DNA from: a phage
Direction: 5' to 3' (one strand)
DNA: 46,335 bases
NCBI GenBank assembly: GCA_033697325.1
Contig: GCA_033697325.1_4854.1
Under the pieces are notes generated by a model. It saw nothing but the letters and a program-made list of their open reading frames with translations. It was not told where the DNA came from and searched no databases. A program made the translations under genes and the position numbers. Each line of letters opens with the position of its first letter. The stretch's first letter is position 1. Below, piece after piece: positions 1 through 34,636 of the stretch.

Positions 1-792
1 GGTAATGAGAACACAGCTTTCGGTGAATACGCATTACGCGGAGGAAATTCCAGCCTACCTACGGGAACATCCATTCAGTATTCCGTCGCTGTAGGAGCTA
101 AAGCCGGTTTCAACGCGTTAGGTAATAATAATACAGCCATAGGTTACGAGGCACTATATTCTGCATCAGGATCTGATAATGTTGGTATTGGATTCGATGC
201 AGGGTTTAAAGTAACGGCTGGAGCTTTCAATGTATTTTTAGGTTCTAATTCTGGTAACGTGTCAGAGCAGGCTACAGATGTGACAAACTGCGTCCTTCTC
301 GGAGATAATACAAAATCAACCGGAAGTAACGCAGTAGCTATCGGTAGTGGGGTAACCGCGGCGCAAAACACGGTCGCAATCGGCAACAGCAGTCACACAG
401 ACATTTTCCAGTACGGAAATATAAAGCCGCAAATAGATAACACCTTTAGTATAGGAAGTTCTTCGGCAAGGTACTCACAAGTTTACGCGACTAACGGCAC
501 CATTAATACCTCTGACGAGCGGTTAAAAACCCCACTCGATTTCGACCTGTTAGACGCTGAAAAAAGAGCCGCCGTTGAGATAAAAAAACATATCGGTAAA
601 TTCAGGTGGCTAGACTCTGGCGGCAGTAAAATGCATTTTGGTGTTGGCGCTCAGACAGTTATTAGCATCTTACTTAAACATGAATTAAATCCTGAAGAGT
701 ATGGTTTCGTAATCCACGAAAAGTGGGACGCTGGTGATGGATACGGCATCAACTACGGCGAGCTGGCTATGTTTATATTAATGGCGATTTAA
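1..792 (+). CDS. Tail fiber protein, C-terminal part (5' end lies outside window), with C-terminal intramolecular chaperone (peptidase S74-like) domain
   Basis: Frame 1 is open from position 1 to stop at 790-792. Gly/Asn/Thr/Ala-rich repeats (GNxNTAxG) typical of fibers. TSDERLK motif at 508-528 followed by about 90 aa resembles the auto-cleaving chaperone domain of endosialidase and T5 pb1-type fibers. Confidence 0.75.
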   Translation, partial: GNENTAFGEYALRGGNSSLPTGTSIQYSVAVGAKAGFNALGNNNTAIGYEALYSASGSDNVGIGFDAGFKVTAGAFNVFLGSNSGNVSEQATDVTNCVLLGDNTKSTGSNAVAIGSGVTAAQNTVAIGNSSHTDIFQYGNIKPQIDNTFSIGSSSARYSQVYATNGTINTSDERLKTPLDFDLLDAEKRAAVEIKKHIGKFRWLDSGGSKMHFGVGAQTVISILLKHELNPEEYGFVIHEKWDAGDGYGINYGELAMFILMAI

Positions 793-793
793 A

Positions 794-813
794 AACCCTG
801 CCGAAACAGGGTT
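794..813. terminator. Hairpin directly after tail fiber stop; T-run is on the minus strand, so probably terminates leftward transcripts
   Basis: aaccctg-ccgaaa-cagggtt stem-loop; the reverse complement is followed by ttttaaat. Confidence 0.4.
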
Positions 814-1028
814 AATCATCCTGATAATAACGTGCATCGTAATTGATGCACGTTAAACCTACCTGATAGTTATTATCCCTTCCTGACGGTTCCATACTCT
901 GAACAAGCATTGCTACAAGTCAGTTGGTAGTTGTTTCTTTGCTAGGAATTTTAGTTAAGAAGCCATCAGCATTACAGTCTCTTGGGACGACAATATTTGT
1001 TTCAGGAACTTATGCACCAGAATTTCGA

Positions 1029-1060
1029 AACCCCACCCGCTTCGGTGGGGTTAGTTTTAT
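1029..1060. terminator. Putative bidirectional intrinsic terminator
   Basis: ccccacc-cgcttc-ggtgggg hairpin followed by ttagtttta on the plus strand. Confidence 0.45.
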
Positions 1061-1062
1061 CA

Positions 1063-1200
1063 TCAGAAGGGGATGTCGCCGTCGAAGTCCATCGGAGGCT
1101 CATTGCCTCCTTGTGGGCTTTGTTGTTTTGGCGGCTGCTGCTTTTGTTGGTTTATTCCCCATCCACCTTGTGGTTGCTGGCCTGATTGCTGGCGTGGTGG
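1063..1200 (-). pseudogene. SSB C-terminal tail coding remnant (45 codons ending MDFDGDIPF) in frame immediately after the VRR-NUC stop codon
   Basis: Minus-strand translation read codon by codon from 1200 to 1066 gives PPRQQSGQQPQGGWGINQQKQQPPKQQSPQGGNEPPMDFDGDIPF, then TGA at 1063-1065. Closely resembles the E. coli SSB linker and acidic tip. Confidence 0.45.
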
Positions 1201-1656
1201 TTAAAAGCCATCAAATATCAATGGTTCTGATGGTTTGCTATGGTTTGGATAATTCATTGCTCGCCAGTCGTTAAATGCCATCATTGCCGCTTCCCAGCCG
1301 AGACAAACACAAGCGAATGAACCTAATCCTTTTGCTGTCTTAAGGTATGCCATTTGTCCAGGCTGCCATTTTGATAAAGTATGATCCATTCTTTTCATCT
1401 CCATAACGAATGATTGCTTTCCGCTAATAATGATGTCTGACGCCCCGAAGTTTAGCGCGCCTTTTTTCTTCAGGTTTTCAACTTCATACCCTTTACGCTT
1501 TCCTTCATTTGGTACATGAATCATAACTCTTGCAAAGTCAGGGTATAGCTTCCTTATCTGATTAACAAAAGTCTCCAGTTCAGCGTCTTCTGACGGGCAC
1601 TTTTTGTTTCTGTAATCTAAATTTCCATATACCTTAACGCCTTCTGGAAAAATCAT
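1201..1656 (-). CDS. VRR-NUC domain nuclease (PD-(D/E)xK family)
   Basis: Motifs VPNEG..., GASDIII, FVMEMKR, LSKWQ match VRR-NUC. ATG at 1656-1654 overlaps the helicase stop (ATGA coupling). Confidence 0.65.
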   Translation of the reverse strand: MIFPEGVKVYGNLDYRNKKCPSEDAELETFVNQIRKLYPDFARVMIHVPNEGKRKGYEVENLKKKGALNFGASDIIISGKQSFVMEMKRMDHTLSKWQPGQMAYLKTAKGLGSFACVCLGWEAAMMAFNDWRAMNYPNHSKPSEPLIFDGF

Positions 1657-4565
1657 AATACCCCCCAATACATGCCTTTAACGTTGAAATATTTACTACC
1701 CTTATCTCTTCTGAACATAATCACTGATGGCGCGACAGCCTCATCTCTTTTAGATATTGCATCATCAATTGACATGTTATGTTCACCAAAGCACTTCTCA
1801 CAAAATTCTTCCCACTCCTTCTTCATCCATTCCTTTTCAGAGTTTGGATTGTAGAACTTGCTAACAAAAAATGGCTTCTGGTCAATAGCAAATTTTACGT
1901 GCACCAAATCTTCACCACTTGAAACGTAATGCTTCATGATGTTCATCATGGTTACGCTTGATTGCTTGGTTGCATAAGGAGACGAATCAAGCCTGTCAGC
2001 TTCTTCCTTTAGCTTTTGGTTGGGGTCAATGATTTCAGCGCCGCATGATGTGCAGTTTCTTGCCGCTATATCATTTTCAAATCCACAATCAGGACACTCT
2101 TTCACCGACCACTTATAAGTACACCTGTGCATTTCCCTTAATGGCCCGTGCATAACGTAGTTTTTACATCTTCTGCCAAAATGAGCAGGCATAGGTTTGC
2201 TTCCAATTTTTTCACCTGACTTATCAAAAATATCAATCATCACCCTGTCACCAGCCAAATCAAGCCAGTAGCCTTCTTTGTCAACTTCCAGATTTTCCGG
2301 ATTTGGGCGCGCGCCAAATTCATTGATAAAGCCACACAACGGGCATTTTACATCCATTGGTACTGATGGTTTTTTCCTTGTTGCCTTTATTTCTGGGGTA
2401 AACAAGTCTCCAGTTTCTGAAAAGTGACGTTGAATATTTCCGGCGTAATCGCTGACAAGAAAGTCTTCCTTTCCCTCATAAAGACGCGTCCCTCTGCCAA
2501 TTATTTGCTGGTAGAGTCTTGGTGACTCTGTTGCTCTCATTACTGCTATATGATCACAATGAGGAACATCCACCCCTACAGTAAGGATATTCTGATTAAC
2601 GATGTATTTAACTTTTTGTGCCTTGAAGTCTGATATTGCCTTGTTGCGATCTGCTGTTGGCATATCACCAAAAACATAACTATAAGAACCGGGAGGAAGT
2701 GACTCCATTATCTCCATAGCGTGTTTCTTGGTACTGGCAAAAATCATCGTTCCGCGCCGATTAACAGAGCGACGGATAATATCTTCAACAATTCGTGATG
2801 TTTTCCTTCCCTTGCCAACCATCGCCTTTTCAACTGAAGCTGTTGTATACCGACCCAACTTATCCTTTTCAAGACAAGACGTATCATATTCTTCAAAAAC
2901 AGGCTCTGTAACTGGTGGCGTAAGATATCCATTTTCAATGAGGAATTTAGCCTCAAGCTCATAAACAACCTTATCATAATATGGGTCAATGGCAGTTTCT
3001 TCATCCGTAGGGCCATCGAGGTAGTGCTCTTTGTAGATGTATCCAGTTCCAAGGCGGTAAGGAGTGGCGGTCATTCCAATAACACGCAGTTTTTGATTGC
3101 GACGCTTCATTTCATTAATAATAAATTTTATGGTTGGCGTGATACCATCGCACTCGTCAATAATGACAGCACCATACTTATCACCAAACATCTCTATTGA
3201 GTTCTTTATTGTAACTGGTGAACCAAACACCACAGGATGACGCAGGTTTTTGGGGCCAGCCTTTGCACTGAACATGCTGGCTGGTTCTCCTGTTAGAGAA
3301 AGATAACGCTGCCTGTTTTGCACAACTAACTCACTTGTTGGGGCAACACACAAAACGCGCTTGCCAGTATTTTTAAAAACCCAATCGGCGATTGATGCAA
3401 CAACAACGCTTTTTCCGCTGTTATGGTGAATCGTGAAATCGCTGGTCAAATACAGATGGTCCCCATCTAAAGTAAATCCATAGAAATCATCTTCTGGTAA
3501 CTCCTCCACCTTAAAACCAGTACAGAGAACATCTTTTTTTTGCTTTCTCTCTTGTGCCACCTTGTAATCAATAAGCGGTTTAAGCATATCGATATCACCA
3601 CTGATACTTACTCTGTACTTTTTGGATACAAAAACACCGTCAAGAGTCGCGTCTCCTACGCCAATATACGCAGCCAGACCTAGTGATCTCGCAACAAACG
3701 CAATATCATCAGCAAGACGACCGGATACAGTGGTTATTTCGTAATAGTTATTGCCAAGATACCCATCAGTATCAACCAAGCCGGAGAGCAGCTCTATACG
3801 CTGTTCTTTTGACGCTATTTTGTAGCACTCAGGTATAAACACAGTGTAAGAGTTTGTGTATTGCAAACCAAGTTTTTTCACTTCATTAAGAATAGCGTTG
3901 CTTTTGTGTTTTCCTCTACCATTTGTTGCCATAAGATTGTGTGTATTTGTGCCATTTTTAACAGAGTCATTAACACAACAACCAAATGACTCTGACACGC
4001 TTTTGAAGTAGTTTATTAGTACATCCTCAGTTCCTGAAAATGTAACGCTACCGTTAGCTGTGGAACCGTCACCAAGAATCATCCCAACAAAACGCGCAGG
4101 TAAAGCCTGTTTAGCCTCTGGGAAGATAACACCTGTTCTGCATAGCTTATGTATATGCTTATGCCATTTTGCTGAACTTTCGTACTCAGCGACAGTTTCG
4201 TCGATGTACGACACCTCTTGAGATGGATATTTATTCACCTGCTTTTGCTTTACTCTCTTGAGATGAAGAATGTGATTCTTGTTAACAACAAAAGAATCAC
4301 CTTTAACTGGTGTAATTTTTCTCATCTCTTCTCGCCCACGGCACAGAGCAAGCACATTTCGTGGCTTGCTGTCCGGGCCCATTAATCTATCTCCGACTGT
4401 AACATCTTCAACGCTCTTGACGCTTCCATCAAACATAATGACTTTCGTTCCTTTGGCGTGACACCCTGTAGGCAAGATGATCATGCACGATGAAACGCTT
4501 GAACGAATATGACCTATAACAGAATCAACAGCTTCTTGTTGGTATGTTCTAAGCTGTACTTTCAT
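1653..4565 (-). CDS. SF2 (DEAD/DEAH-like) DNA helicase, interrupted by an intein; C-terminal zinc-ribbon region
   Basis: Motif I LPTG|SGKS is split by the intein. DExD-like VIIDECDG and MTATPYR motifs. C-terminal CPLCG...CPDCG...CTSCG. Start chosen at ATG 4565-4563, preceded by SD gagagga. Confidence 0.85.
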   Translation of the reverse strand: MKVQLRTYQQEAVDSVIGHIRSSVSSCMIILPTGCHAKGTKVIMFDGSVKSVEDVTVGDRLMGPDSKPRNVLALCRGREEMRKITPVKGDSFVVNKNHILHLKRVKQKQVNKYPSQEVSYIDETVAEYESSAKWHKHIHKLCRTGVIFPEAKQALPARFVGMILGDGSTANGSVTFSGTEDVLINYFKSVSESFGCCVNDSVKNGTNTHNLMATNGRGKHKSNAILNEVKKLGLQYTNSYTVFIPECYKIASKEQRIELLSGLVDTDGYLGNNYYEITTVSGRLADDIAFVARSLGLAAYIGVGDATLDGVFVSKKYRVSISGDIDMLKPLIDYKVAQERKQKKDVLCTGFKVEELPEDDFYGFTLDGDHLYLTSDFTIHHNSGKSVVVASIADWVFKNTGKRVLCVAPTSELVVQNRQRYLSLTGEPASMFSAKAGPKNLRHPVVFGSPVTIKNSIEMFGDKYGAVIIDECDGITPTIKFIINEMKRRNQKLRVIGMTATPYRLGTGYIYKEHYLDGPTDEETAIDPYYDKVVYELEAKFLIENGYLTPPVTEPVFEEYDTSCLEKDKLGRYTTASVEKAMVGKGRKTSRIVEDIIRRSVNRRGTMIFASTKKHAMEIMESLPPGSYSYVFGDMPTADRNKAISDFKAQKVKYIVNQNILTVGVDVPHCDHIAVMRATESPRLYQQIIGRGTRLYEGKEDFLVSDYAGNIQRHFSETGDLFTPEIKATRKKPSVPMDVKCPLCGFINEFGARPNPENLEVDKEGYWLDLAGDRVMIDIFDKSGEKIGSKPMPAHFGRRCKNYVMHGPLREMHRCTYKWSVKECPDCGFENDIAARNCTSCGAEIIDPNQKLKEEADRLDSSPYATKQSSVTMMNIMKHYVSSGEDLVHVKFAIDQKPFFVSKFYNPNSEKEWMKKEWEEFCEKCFGEHNMSIDDAISKRDEAVAPSVIMFRRDKGSKYFNVKGMYWGVL
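3420..4463 (-). mobile_element. Intein (348 aa) with LAGLIDADG homing endonuclease domain inserted in helicase P-loop
   Basis: Begins with Cys right after LPTG and ends ...TIHHN followed by Ser of SGKS. Two LAGLIDADG-like motifs (VGMILGDGS and LSGLVDTDGYL). Confidence 0.8.
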
Positions 4566-4618: not shown

Positions 4619-5140
4619 TTAAAACGGCACATCATCACTAAAGTCCATAGGCGGCTCGTTAGACGGTGCAGATTGCTTAGGAGCAGGTGCTGCTTTTGTC
4701 TGTTGACGACTGAAAACGCCAGCCACATAGTTACCAGTTTTTTGCTTATCCTCAGACTCCCAAACGCGCAGAAGAAGAATCATTGGGCGATTTGCAAGCG
4801 CACTGGCAATGGCAAAATCAGTCGGCTCTTTCCCTGATGCCATCAGCTTACCACCAGCGTTTGCGTCAATTGCTGCAAGCATAGTGATAGCATTGTCGCG
4901 CTGCTTTTCTTTCGAGCTAAATACTTTCAGCTTCTGGAAGATGATGCGATTTTTATACTCACCCTCAAGGATTCGCCACTTAAGATTGAAGAATCGCTCA
5001 CCTTCCCACTGATCGTCTTTACACTCTTCAACGGCAGCAAGAACACGGCTGCCATCAGGAATTACTTCGAAACCACCACCCAGCTCAAATTCAGATTTAG
5101 ATTCAACAGCTTTACCGTCAGAAAGATTCCAGAAACCCAT
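4619..5140 (-). CDS. Putative ssDNA-binding protein with SSB-type acidic C-terminal tip (…NEPPMDFSDDVPF); fold not a canonical SSB by eye
   Basis: C-terminus APSNEPPMDFSDDVPF resembles the E. coli SSB tail. Sits next to Sak4 and Gp157-like genes. ATG at 5140 with SD gagagga. Confidence 0.55.
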   Translation of the reverse strand: MGFWNLSDGKAVESKSEFELGGGFEVIPDGSRVLAAVEECKDDQWEGERFFNLKWRILEGEYKNRIIFQKLKVFSSKEKQRDNAITMLAAIDANAGGKLMASGKEPTDFAIASALANRPMILLLRVWESEDKQKTGNYVAGVFSRQQTKAAPAPKQSAPSNEPPMDFSDDVPF

Positions 5141-34559: not shown

Positions 34560-34636
34560 TGGTGGACACGGACGGATTTGAACCTTCAATCAGCCGATTA
34601 TGAGTCGGTTGCTTTAACCAATTAAGCTACGCGTCC
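34560..34636 (-). tRNA. tRNA with CAU anticodon (elongator Met or lysidine-modified Ile2; not initiator-like)
   Basis: 77-nt cloverleaf folded by hand: 7-bp acceptor stem including one GU, D-arm with GG, anticodon loop CUCAUAA, T-loop GGTTCAAATCC, discriminator A, encoded CCA. G1-C72 pair argues against initiator. Confidence 0.75.

What the first reader, a model, noticed from the sequence alone, without database searches (positions are those of the whole stretch)
1063..1200. SSB-type C-terminal tail encoded in frame immediately after the nuclease stop codon
The 45 codons after the VRR-NUC TAA stop, in the same frame, encode a textbook SSB linker and acidic tip ending MDFDGDIPF, then a TGA. 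This could be a recent nonsense mutation that severed an SSB-tail fusion from the nuclease, a readthrough extension, or the relic of a deleted ssb gene that happens to lie in frame. A nuclease carrying an SSB tail would dock onto the SSB interaction network.
Basis: seen in the sequence. Interest (0 to 1): 0.72.

Follow-up and report, generated by a model that had tools for sequence, protein, structure and literature searches.

The report
Leftover ssb gene tail, not translated
The SSB-like tail after the nuclease stop codon is real, but it is a non-coding leftover of a phage ssb gene, sitting where tail-spike gene cassettes are swapped between phages, and its shared reading frame with the nuclease is a coincidence.

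Summary
On the minus strand the nuclease gene (1656..1201) ends in TAA. The next 45 codons in the same frame (1200..1066) read PPRQQSGQQPQGGWGINQQKQQPPKQQSPQGGNEPPMDFDGDIPF, followed by TGA TGA TAA and a hairpin.

The segment is 86-94% identical in DNA to the last ~45 codons of intact ssb genes of T1-like phages (IME207, DS8, ZCEC08). In those phages ssb is the last gene before the same terminator and a convergent tail-fibre gene.

I examined about 30 distinct relatives carrying this nuclease:
- All keep the nuclease stop codon (TAA, TAG or TGA).
- 19 carry the remnant in frame, with two junction types.
- 2 carry it in the +1 frame.
- 9 lack it.
- One in-frame copy has an internal TAG.

No fused ORF exists among 5.8 billion proteins.

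Remnant sequences interleave with intact ssb 3' ends. In two cases homology to an ssb-bearing phage starts within the remnant's first six bases and runs more than 1.5 kb into the tail-fibre gene. So the remnant marks the left edge of an exchanged cassette and is overwritten from functional ssb genes, which explains its coding-like conservation.

A severed fusion is not supported. Readthrough has no positive evidence. The phage's real SSB-tipped protein is a DUF669 SSB at 5140..4619. The finding is ordinary and of low interest.

The parts
1201..1656 (-). VRR-NUC-fold nuclease gene (151 aa) with its TAA stop at 1203..1201. Its ATG overlaps the helicase TGA (ATGA).
   Evidence: Searches give the reading frame. 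The AF2 model has pLDDT 86.7 and its top Foldseek hit is 4qbl, a VRR_NUC domain protein. D74, E86 and K88 are invariant in 37 homologues. There is no Pfam hit.
1066..1200 (-). Non-coding remnant of the last 45 codons of a T1-like phage ssb gene (disordered linker plus acidic tip NEPPMDFDGDIPF). It lies in frame with the nuclease, directly after its stop.
   Evidence: It aligns to IME207 SSB residues 124-166 and to the 3' ends of ssb in L026-L045.
1057..1065 (-). The triple stop TGA TGA TAA inherited from the ssb gene end.
   Evidence: The same TGATGATAA follows intact ssb genes.
1029..1052 (-). Hairpin terminator shared with ssb-terminal phages and with relatives that have no remnant. It probably ends the helicase-nuclease transcript.
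   Evidence: dG -19.1 kcal/mol, z -2.0. The conserved CCCCGCCGAAGCGGGG appears.
812..915 (-). Second remnant in the same intergenic stretch: the 3' end of a 9NA/Sashavirus-type tail tip protein gene (…AMLVQSMEPSGRDNNYQVGLTCINYDARYYQDD*).
   Evidence: 97-99% identity to 9NA, SP069, FSL SP-062, PJ16 and Sashavirus. Translation.
794..813 (.). Second hairpin, between the tail-tip remnant and the convergent tail-fibre gene.
   Evidence: dG -13.3 kcal/mol, z -3.2.
1..792 (+). 3' part of the convergent tail fibre/tailspike gene. This is the cassette whose left boundary the remnants mark.
   Evidence: ORF ending at 792. P817 tail fibre gene 83% identical across 1-1060, ST4 86% across 1-659.
4619..5140 (-). 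The phage's own SSB-type protein (DUF669, 173 aa), ending …SAPSNEPPMDFSDDVPF. It shows the phage does not depend on the remnant for an SSB-tipped protein.
   Evidence: Pfam DUF669 E 1.2e-5. phrog_9002 'single strand DNA binding protein' E 3e-69.

Best explanation
The 135 bases after the nuclease stop are an untranslated remnant of the 3' end of a T1-like phage ssb gene. They sit in the 3' untranslated stretch between the nuclease stop and the terminator that ssb normally uses.

In one lineage of these siphophages (IME207, DS8, LPST10 and others) the early operon ends helicase - nuclease - exonuclease - RecT - ssb - terminator, facing a convergent tail-fibre gene. In the window's lineage (Sf11, Sa179lw, YX3973, 6991 and others) the operon ends at the nuclease. 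The recombination functions (Gp157, Sak4-like ATPase, DUF669 SSB) lie upstream of the helicase.

The boundary between the last early gene and the tail-fibre cassette is a hot spot for cassette exchange. One or a few illegitimate joins placed an ssb 3' fragment directly behind the nuclease stop. Since then, homologous crossovers inside the fragment, with co-infecting ssb-bearing phages, have repeatedly overwritten its sequence while swapping the tail-fibre cassette.

This accounts for three coding-like features: the open frame, indels in multiples of three, and mostly synonymous differences. They are inherited from functional donor genes rather than maintained in place.

Shown: homology, synteny, junction types, frame variation, loss, interleaving with intact genes, and contiguous homology blocks. 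Inferred: the order of events (import with a cassette versus in-place deletion), and that the fragment's persistence owes something to its use as a homology arm.
For: - Intact ssb at the syntenic position in IME207 and DS8, with the same triple stop and terminator.
- The window holds no OB-domain, exonuclease or RecT homologue of that module.
- Census of relatives: type A junction in frame (10 distinct loci), type B in frame (9), type C in the +1 frame (L174, L180), no remnant in 9 loci. An internal TAG occurs in L011.
- No protein joins nuclease and tail among 5.8 billion. Nuclease clusters are all 151-152 aa.
- Every variant seen in remnants also occurs in intact ssb genes: GGW-insert versus QRQQQ linker, DDSIPF, NEPT, the DF deletion, SSTQKTP.
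- Remnants are not monophyletic. Several have an intact ssb as nearest neighbour.
- The L016 remnant plus downstream is 93.2% identical over 1632 nt to ssb-bearing L038, starting at remnant base 1. L021 is 98.7% identical over 1567 nt to L048.
- Downstream modules are shared between the two nuclease clades.
- Reciprocal and parallel remnants exist. There is a VRR-NUC 3' fragment behind intact ssb in L034 and L036. There is a 5'-truncated ssb pseudogene behind the tail tip gene in Sashavirus BDX09P1 and L028. There is a 9NA tail-tip gene remnant at window 812-915, also present in P817.
Against: - pN/pS among remnants (0.14) is as low as among intact ssb tails (0.21). Taken alone this would suggest protein-level selection. 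I attribute it to donor genes, but that is an inference.
- The two commonest junction types are both in frame and flush with the stop codon. Type B has an ATG immediately after the TGA in 8 of 9 loci.
- The remnant is retained in the most populous nuclease clusters (341 and 182 member sequences).
- The stop context UAA-C/UAG-C is, from my own knowledge of E. coli termination, a relatively weak one.
- No expression data exist for this region. The Sf11 mass spectrometry covers virions only (PMC12724387).
Confidence: 0.85

Rival explanations
1. Leaky or programmed readthrough of the nuclease stop makes a minor nuclease-SSB-tail fusion. The fusion would dock on host proteins that bind the SSB C-terminus.
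For: The remnant is in frame in 19 of 21 remnant-bearing loci. The extension is open for 45 codons. C follows the stop in type A. pN/pS is low.
Against: - The remnant is in the +1 frame in L174 and L180, absent in 9 loci, and carries a second in-frame TAG in L011.
- Three different stop codons are used. The only tRNA gene found is tRNA-Met, so there is no suppressor.
- No fused ORF occurs in any relative or in 5.8 billion proteins.
- The nuclease's own C-terminus always ends in Phe on a disordered tail. An extension would bury that end.
- The coding-like pattern is explained by exchange with intact ssb genes.
Confidence: 0.04
2. The segment encodes a separately translated small peptide. In type B this would be a 24-aa product re-initiated at the TGA-ATG. 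In type A it would be a 9-aa MDFD(D/G)DIPF started from the internal ATG, 13 nt after AAGGAGG. The peptide would act as a decoy for the host SSB C-terminal tip.
For: ATG directly follows TGA in 8 of 9 type B loci. AAGGAGG lies upstream of the Met codon in type A. The tip sequence is well kept.
Against: - L023 has ATT instead of ATG.
- Type A has no start at the junction.
- The AAGGAGG is simply the Q-G-G codons present in the intact ssb genes too, and 13 nt is long for a Shine-Dalgarno spacing (my own knowledge).
- Type C and the remnant-free relatives show the segment is dispensable.
- The window's tip carries D->G inside the acidic triplet.
Confidence: 0.04
3. A recent nonsense mutation split a once-continuous nuclease::SSB-tail gene.
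For: The TAA/TAG lines up with a CAA/AAA codon of intact ssb (Q or K), one transition away.
Against: The stop is universal across nuclease subtypes that are only 63-68% identical, including relatives with no tail. No continuous ORF occurs anywhere. More distant homologues end even earlier.
Confidence: 0.01
4. Origin variant: the lineage once carried its own exonuclease-RecT-ssb module behind this nuclease and lost it by an in-place deletion of about 2.4 kb. In this view the fragment was not imported with a tail-fibre cassette.
For: The two lineages show perfect synteny of helicase - nuclease … terminator - tail fibre. The junction is fixed within each clade. The terminator is shared.
Against: - No phage in the samples combines this nuclease subtype with the exo-RecT-ssb module.
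- Many subtypes have the terminator directly after the stop.
- Three different junction positions within ssb would need three deletions, or later trimming.
- Remnants demonstrably move with cassettes, even into unrelated Sashaviruses.
Confidence: 0.3

Closest known systems
C-terminal linker and acidic tip of bacterial-type SSB (Pfam PF00436 proteins; E. coli SSB …SNEPPMDFDDDIPF)
   Same: The sequence is the same: Gln/Pro/Gly-rich linker and NEPPMDFD(G/D)DIPF tip. It is 86% identical in protein to IME207 SSB residues 124-166, and the DNA matches phage ssb 3' ends.
   Different: There is no OB domain, no start codon and no promoter of its own. It begins immediately after another gene's stop codon. 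The central Asp of the DDD triplet is Gly in the window.
Gene remnants at novel joints in mosaic phage genomes, and horizontal exchange of tail-fibre/tailspike cassettes (as described for lambdoid phages and for P2/Mu/T-even tail fibres; cited from my own knowledge, with the Sf11 tailspike paper PMC12724387 for this group)
   Same: A fragment of the donor's neighbouring gene is carried along with an exchanged cassette. Homology to other phages starts abruptly inside a gene. Reciprocal fragments occur in other genomes.
   Different: This particular remnant (an ssb 3' end behind a VRR-NUC-fold nuclease) has, as far as I could find, not been described. It is unusually widespread, and its content keeps being renewed from intact genes.
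Programmed stop-codon readthrough extensions (e.g. the Qβ A1 read-through protein; from my own knowledge)
   Same: An open in-frame extension lies directly after a stop codon.
   Different: In real cases the extension is conserved in frame and is essential. Here it is out of frame, interrupted or absent in relatives.
DUF669 phage SSB with an SSB-type tip, encoded in the same window (5140..4619)
   Same: It carries the same kind of tip (SNEPPMDFSDDVPF) on a protein that is not a canonical OB-fold SSB.
   Different: It is a complete, conserved gene with a start and a folded domain. Distant marine relatives keep a DDEIPF/DDDLPF end. It is functional, not a remnant.

Membership tests
Functional ssb gene (PF00436 SSB) | N-terminal OB-fold DNA-binding domain | tested here: not met
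   tblastn with IME207 and E. coli SSB finds only residues 124-166 / 129-178 at 1197..1066. No OB part appears anywhere in the window.
Functional ssb gene (PF00436 SSB) | Disordered linker and acidic C-terminal tip ending IPF | tested here: met
   PHROG SSB families match residues 16-45.
Functional ssb gene (PF00436 SSB) | Own start codon and open reading frame | tested here: not met
   The segment starts right after the nuclease TAA with CCA. The only in-frame ATG is the Met nine codons from the end.
Translated in-frame extension of the nuclease (fusion or readthrough product) | Continuous nuclease-tail ORF in at least some relatives | tested here: not met
   About 30 distinct loci all have the stop. 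In the 5.8-billion-protein search all nuclease homologues are 151-152 aa and cover at most 77% of the hypothetical fusion.
Translated in-frame extension of the nuclease (fusion or readthrough product) | Frame relationship conserved wherever the tail is present | tested here: not met
   In L174 and L180 the tip QQ(T/P)PNS(P/Q)PMEDDIPF* is in the +1 frame.
Translated in-frame extension of the nuclease (fusion or readthrough product) | Extension free of stop codons and present in relatives | tested here: not met
   L011 has TAG in the linker. Nine loci of six nuclease subtypes have no tail at all.
Translated in-frame extension of the nuclease (fusion or readthrough product) | Protein-level selection acting in place | tested here: inconclusive
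   pN/pS is 0.14 among remnants versus 0.21 among intact tails. But remnants interleave with intact genes and share long homology blocks with them, so the signal can be inherited.
Translated in-frame extension of the nuclease (fusion or readthrough product) | Detectable product in infected cells | not testable with these tools
   The only proteomics found covers Sf11 virions (PMC12724387).
Gene remnant at a mosaic (cassette-exchange) joint | Homologous to the end of an intact gene at the syntenic position in related phages | tested here: met
Gene remnant at a mosaic (cassette-exchange) joint | Homology with donor-type genomes runs from the remnant into the neighbouring cassette | tested here: met
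   L016/L038: 93.2% over 1632 nt from remnant base 1. L021/L048: 98.7% over 1567 nt. The window's own block ends at the terminator (163 nt, 88%).
Gene remnant at a mosaic (cassette-exchange) joint | Variable presence, frame and integrity among relatives; analogous remnants elsewhere | tested here: met
   (presence and frame). L011 and BDX09P1 have internal stops. A nuclease fragment lies behind ssb in L034 and L036. A tail-tip remnant lies at window 812-915.
VRR-NUC nuclease (label used for the upstream gene) | Match to Pfam VRR_NUC profile | tested here: not met
   No hit at E<=0.01 or E<=5. No PDB sequence-profile hit.
VRR-NUC nuclease (label used for the upstream gene) | VRR-NUC fold with PD-(D/E)xK catalytic residues | tested here: met
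   The AF2 model has pLDDT 86.7. Foldseek's top six hits are 4qbl chains, E 2.8e-4 to 2e-3, TM up to 0.64/0.78, rmsd 1.8 A. D74, E86 and K88 are invariant in 37 homologues.

The most novel reading that the evidence does not exclude
The remnant is not inert. A small fraction of ribosomes might read through the weak UAA-C stop, giving a VRR-NUC nuclease with a host-type SSB tip. Alternatively ribosomes might re-initiate behind the stop (TGA-ATG in the 6991-like clade), giving a free SSB-tip peptide. Either product would tap or jam the host's SSB-partner network during infection. In the lineages where the remnant happens to be in frame, this would add to its persistence.
Probability: 0.04. Interest if true: 0.7.

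Novelty: new member of a known kind. Interest (0 to 1): 0.18.

Why it matters
Mainly as a caution. An open, well-conserved, mostly synonymous-varying frame behind a stop codon looks like a hidden extension. Here that signature is borrowed from functional ssb genes by recombination.

It also gives a clear worked example of how tail-spike cassettes move among T1-like phages and 9NA/Sasha-like phages. Each move leaves 3' fragments of whatever gene was next door: ssb, the nuclease, or the tail tip protein. Such fragments can be used to trace the history of host-range cassettes. They might also serve as natural homology arms when engineering these phages.

If the small-probability translated reading were true, it would be the first nuclease or peptide borrowing the SSB tip. 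The evidence here does not point that way.

Tried and rejected
- Codon-position and pN/pS tests. Variable sites in type A tails are [11,10,22] by codon position, against [9,8,54] in the nuclease. pN/pS is 0.14 among remnants and 0.21 among intact tails. At first sight this suggests selection. I rejected it as evidence of translation because remnants interleave with intact genes and share contiguous blocks with them.
- Suppressor tRNA. ARAGORN finds only a tRNA-Met.
- Could the nuclease's own C-terminal extension (…SEPLIFDGF) be an older, degraded SSB tip? Shuffle tests give p from 0.003 to 0.9 depending on the pair, uncorrected for multiple testing. Not supported.
- Pfam and PDB sequence searches for the nuclease returned nothing useful. 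Only the fold comparison placed it.
- The Sf11 annotation has a 60-aa 'gp12' over this DNA. By its coordinates it is in the +1 frame relative to gp11, so it does not correspond to the SSB-tail frame and is probably a spurious call.
- Literature searches found no description of this remnant or of SSB tips on nucleases.
- Distant nuclease homologues (<=55% identity) have neither the C-terminal extension nor any tip after the stop.
- Do remnant-free relatives share cassettes with ssb phages? In my small sample only the 30-35 nt terminator matched. Uninformative.

Full report
**What is there**

All features lie on the minus strand. The gene at 1656..1201 encodes a 151-aa nuclease whose ATG overlaps the stop of the upstream helicase gene, and it ends in TAA (1203..1201). 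Read on in the same frame, 1200..1066 gives 45 sense codons: PPRQQSGQQPQGGWGINQQKQQPPKQQSPQGGNEPPMDFDGDIPF. After these come TGA TGA TAA (1065..1057) and a G+C-rich hairpin at 1052..1029.

The resemblance to SSB is homology, not chance:
- IME207 SSB residues 124-166 align at 86% identity, E 2e-21.
- E. coli SSB aligns at E 8e-10.
- The DNA is 86-94% identical to the 3' ends of annotated ssb genes in IME207, DS8, ZCEC08 and LPST10.

**The upstream gene**

It has no Pfam hit, even at E<=5, and no PDB sequence-profile hit. An AlphaFold model built on 37 homologues (pLDDT 86.7) matches the stand-alone VRR_NUC structure 4qbl best (Foldseek E 2.8e-4, TM 0.64/0.78, rmsd 1.8 A). D74, E86 and K88 are invariant. 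The 'VRR-NUC' label is acceptable by fold.

**Context in related phages**

In IME207 and DS8 the order is helicase, a distant homologue of this nuclease, a small ORF, exonuclease, RecT-type recombinase, ssb, the same TGATGATAA and terminator, then a convergent tail-fibre gene.

In the window, and in Sf11, Sa179lw, ECO111 5-P and YX3973, the operon ends at the nuclease and only the ssb tail segment follows. The window has no homologue of the OB domain, exonuclease or RecT of that module. Instead, upstream of the helicase it carries:
- a Gp157-family protein;
- a Sak4-like AAA_24 ATPase;
- a DUF669 single-strand-binding protein (5140..4619) that itself ends SAPSNEPPMDFSDDVPF.

So the phage has a genuine SSB-tipped protein elsewhere.

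**Census of relatives**

I gathered relatives from GenBank phages, IMG/VR and metagenome assemblies and scored what follows the nuclease stop.

| Junction type | Nuclease end | Stop | What follows | Distinct loci |
|---|---|---|---|---|
| A | …LIFDGF | TAA or TAG | 38-45 tail codons, in frame | 10 |
| B (nuclease ~64% identical) | …IQIDSF | TGA | ATG (once ATT), then KPSNTSKPPANEPPMDFDDDIPF, in frame | 9 |
| C | …IIKEF / …VITEF | TGA | QQ(T/P)PNS(P/Q)PMEDDIPF*, in the +1 frame | 2 |
| No remnant (six nuclease subtypes) | various | TAA, TAG or TGA | conserved terminator CCCCGCCGAAGCGGGG within 7-21 nt of the stop (L181/L182 contigs end after 14 nt, showing only its first bases) | 9 |

L011, a type A locus, has an extra TAG inside the linker.

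Every locus has a stop after a C-terminal Phe at the homologous position. A search of 5.8 billion proteins with the hypothetical fusion found only 151-152-aa nucleases, covering at most 77% of the query, and ordinary SSBs. No protein joins the two.

These facts rule out a recently severed fusion. They also remove the regularities a programmed readthrough would require. Two of three junction types being in frame is unremarkable: by chance, P(at least 2 of 3) is about 0.26.

**Why the segment looks coding**

Differences among remnants are mostly synonymous. pN/pS is 0.14, against 0.21 among intact ssb tails. All indels are multiples of three.

However, every variant found in remnants also exists in intact ssb genes of other phages:
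- the GGW-containing linker of the window versus the QRQQQ linker;
- DDSIPF;
- NEPT;
- the loss of DF;
- SSTQKTP.

Type B remnants match a second group of intact ssb genes (L046, L048, L053, L055, L056). Remnants do not form a clade, and several have an intact ssb 3' end as their nearest neighbour.

Most tellingly, the L016 remnant and the following 1.5 kb are 93.2% identical to ssb-bearing L038, starting at the first base of the remnant. L021 is 98.7% identical over 1567 nt to L048. Downstream modules are also shared between type A and type B phages.

The remnant is therefore the left edge of a tail-fibre cassette exchanged with ssb-terminal phages. Its sequence is repeatedly replaced from genes that are under protein-level selection. 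The coding-like signature is inherited.

**Parallel remnants**

The same boundary has left other fragments:
- L034 and L036 are ssb-bearing phages. Each carries, behind ssb, a decayed 3' fragment of this nuclease type (…GWEAAMMAFNDWRSKNYPKQNE**).
- Sashavirus BDX09P1 and contig L028 are unrelated 58-kb phages. Each carries a 5'-truncated T1-type ssb pseudogene behind its tail tip gene, and BDX09P1's copy has an internal stop.
- The window has a second remnant at 915..812. It is 97-99% identical to the 3' end of the 9NA/Sasha tail tip protein gene, followed by its own hairpin.
- Phage P817 has the same terminator, tail-tip remnant and tail-fibre arrangement, behind a different SSB-like gene.
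- The adjacent gene in Sf11 is a P22/Sf6-like tailspike. Its authors suggest such tail components may be acquired horizontally (PMC12724387).

**Mechanism, with what is shown and what is inferred**

Shown:
- The segment is an ssb 3' fragment in the untranslated stretch between the nuclease stop and the ssb-type terminator.
- It takes part in exchange with intact ssb genes.
- Its presence, length, frame and integrity vary among relatives.

Inferred:
- One or a few illegitimate joins created the junctions. Whether by import with a cassette or by in-place loss of exo-RecT-ssb remains open. I lean to import, because no phage combines this nuclease subtype with that module and many subtypes lack any remnant.
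- Persistence may be helped by the fragment's use as a 70-135-bp homology arm for capturing new tail-fibre cassettes.

Not excluded:
- Low-level translation, by readthrough or by re-initiation at TGA-ATG in type B. I put each at about 4%.

**Comparison and novelty**

The sequence is an SSB tail, but the locus fails the tests for an ssb gene: no OB domain and no start. It also fails the tests for a translated extension: no continuous ORF anywhere, frame not conserved, interrupted or absent in relatives. It meets the features of a gene remnant at a mosaic joint.

That kind of object is well known in phage genomics. This particular, widespread and continually refreshed ssb remnant appears undescribed. 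It is a new member of a known kind and of low general interest.

Noticed in passing
window 4619-5140 (-): A DUF669-family single-strand-binding protein (173 aa), just upstream of the helicase, ends in a host-type SSB tip (…SAPSNEPPMDFSDDVPF). Distant marine relatives of the module keep DDEIPF/DDDLPF ends. This is the phage's real SSB-tipped protein, on a non-canonical SSB fold.
   Followed up: partly
window 3420-4463 (-), inside the helicase gene 1653-4565: The SF2 helicase carries a 348-residue intein (Hint plus LAGLIDADG homing endonuclease domains). It is inserted in the Walker A motif (PTG|C…HN|SGKS). Relatives have helicases of 620-636 aa without it.
   Followed up: partly
window 812-915 (-), hairpin 794-813: A second gene remnant lies in the same intergenic stretch: the last ~34 codons of a 9NA/Sashavirus-type tail tip protein gene, 97-99% identical to 9NA, SP069, PJ16 and Sashavirus. 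It is followed by its own hairpin. A decayed copy sits at the same place in phage P817.
   Followed up: yes
window 1204-1251 (-), nuclease residues 136-151: The nuclease has a disordered C-terminal extension absent from distant homologues. It is highly variable between subtypes but always ends in …[I/F][D/N/K/E]x-Phe (FDGF, IDSF, IDNF, INHF, IKEF, IESF, IDRF). This could be a docking motif of its own. Similarity to the SSB tip was not statistically supported.
   Followed up: partly
L034 ~4150-4340 and L036 ~4170-4345: Two ssb-bearing T1-like phages carry, between ssb and the tail-fibre gene, a decayed 3' fragment of the ECO95-type VRR-NUC-fold nuclease. This is the mirror image of the window's ssb remnant.
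   Followed up: yes
L106 (Sashavirus BDX09P1) 3120-3521; L028 3501-3917: Unrelated 58-kb Sashavirus-type genomes hold a 5'-truncated T1-type ssb pseudogene (residues ~28-166) directly after the tail tip protein gene. BDX09P1's copy has an internal stop and DDLIPF.
   Followed up: partly
L008 (Escherichia phage ECO95 1-6-1) ~4424: This 'unverified' assembly has an in-frame TAG ten codons before the normal end of the nuclease. Cluster P0015, of 33 sequences, has GAG (Glu) at that position. It is either a true nonsense variant or an assembly error.
   Followed up: no
window 34560-34636 (-): A single tRNA-Met (CAT) gene, the only tRNA in the window.
   Followed up: no
L001 (Sf11) 2990-3172: GenBank annotates a 60-aa hypothetical 'gp12' across the remnant. 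By its coordinates it is in the +1 frame relative to the nuclease and the SSB-tail frame, so it is probably a spurious gene call.
   Followed up: partly
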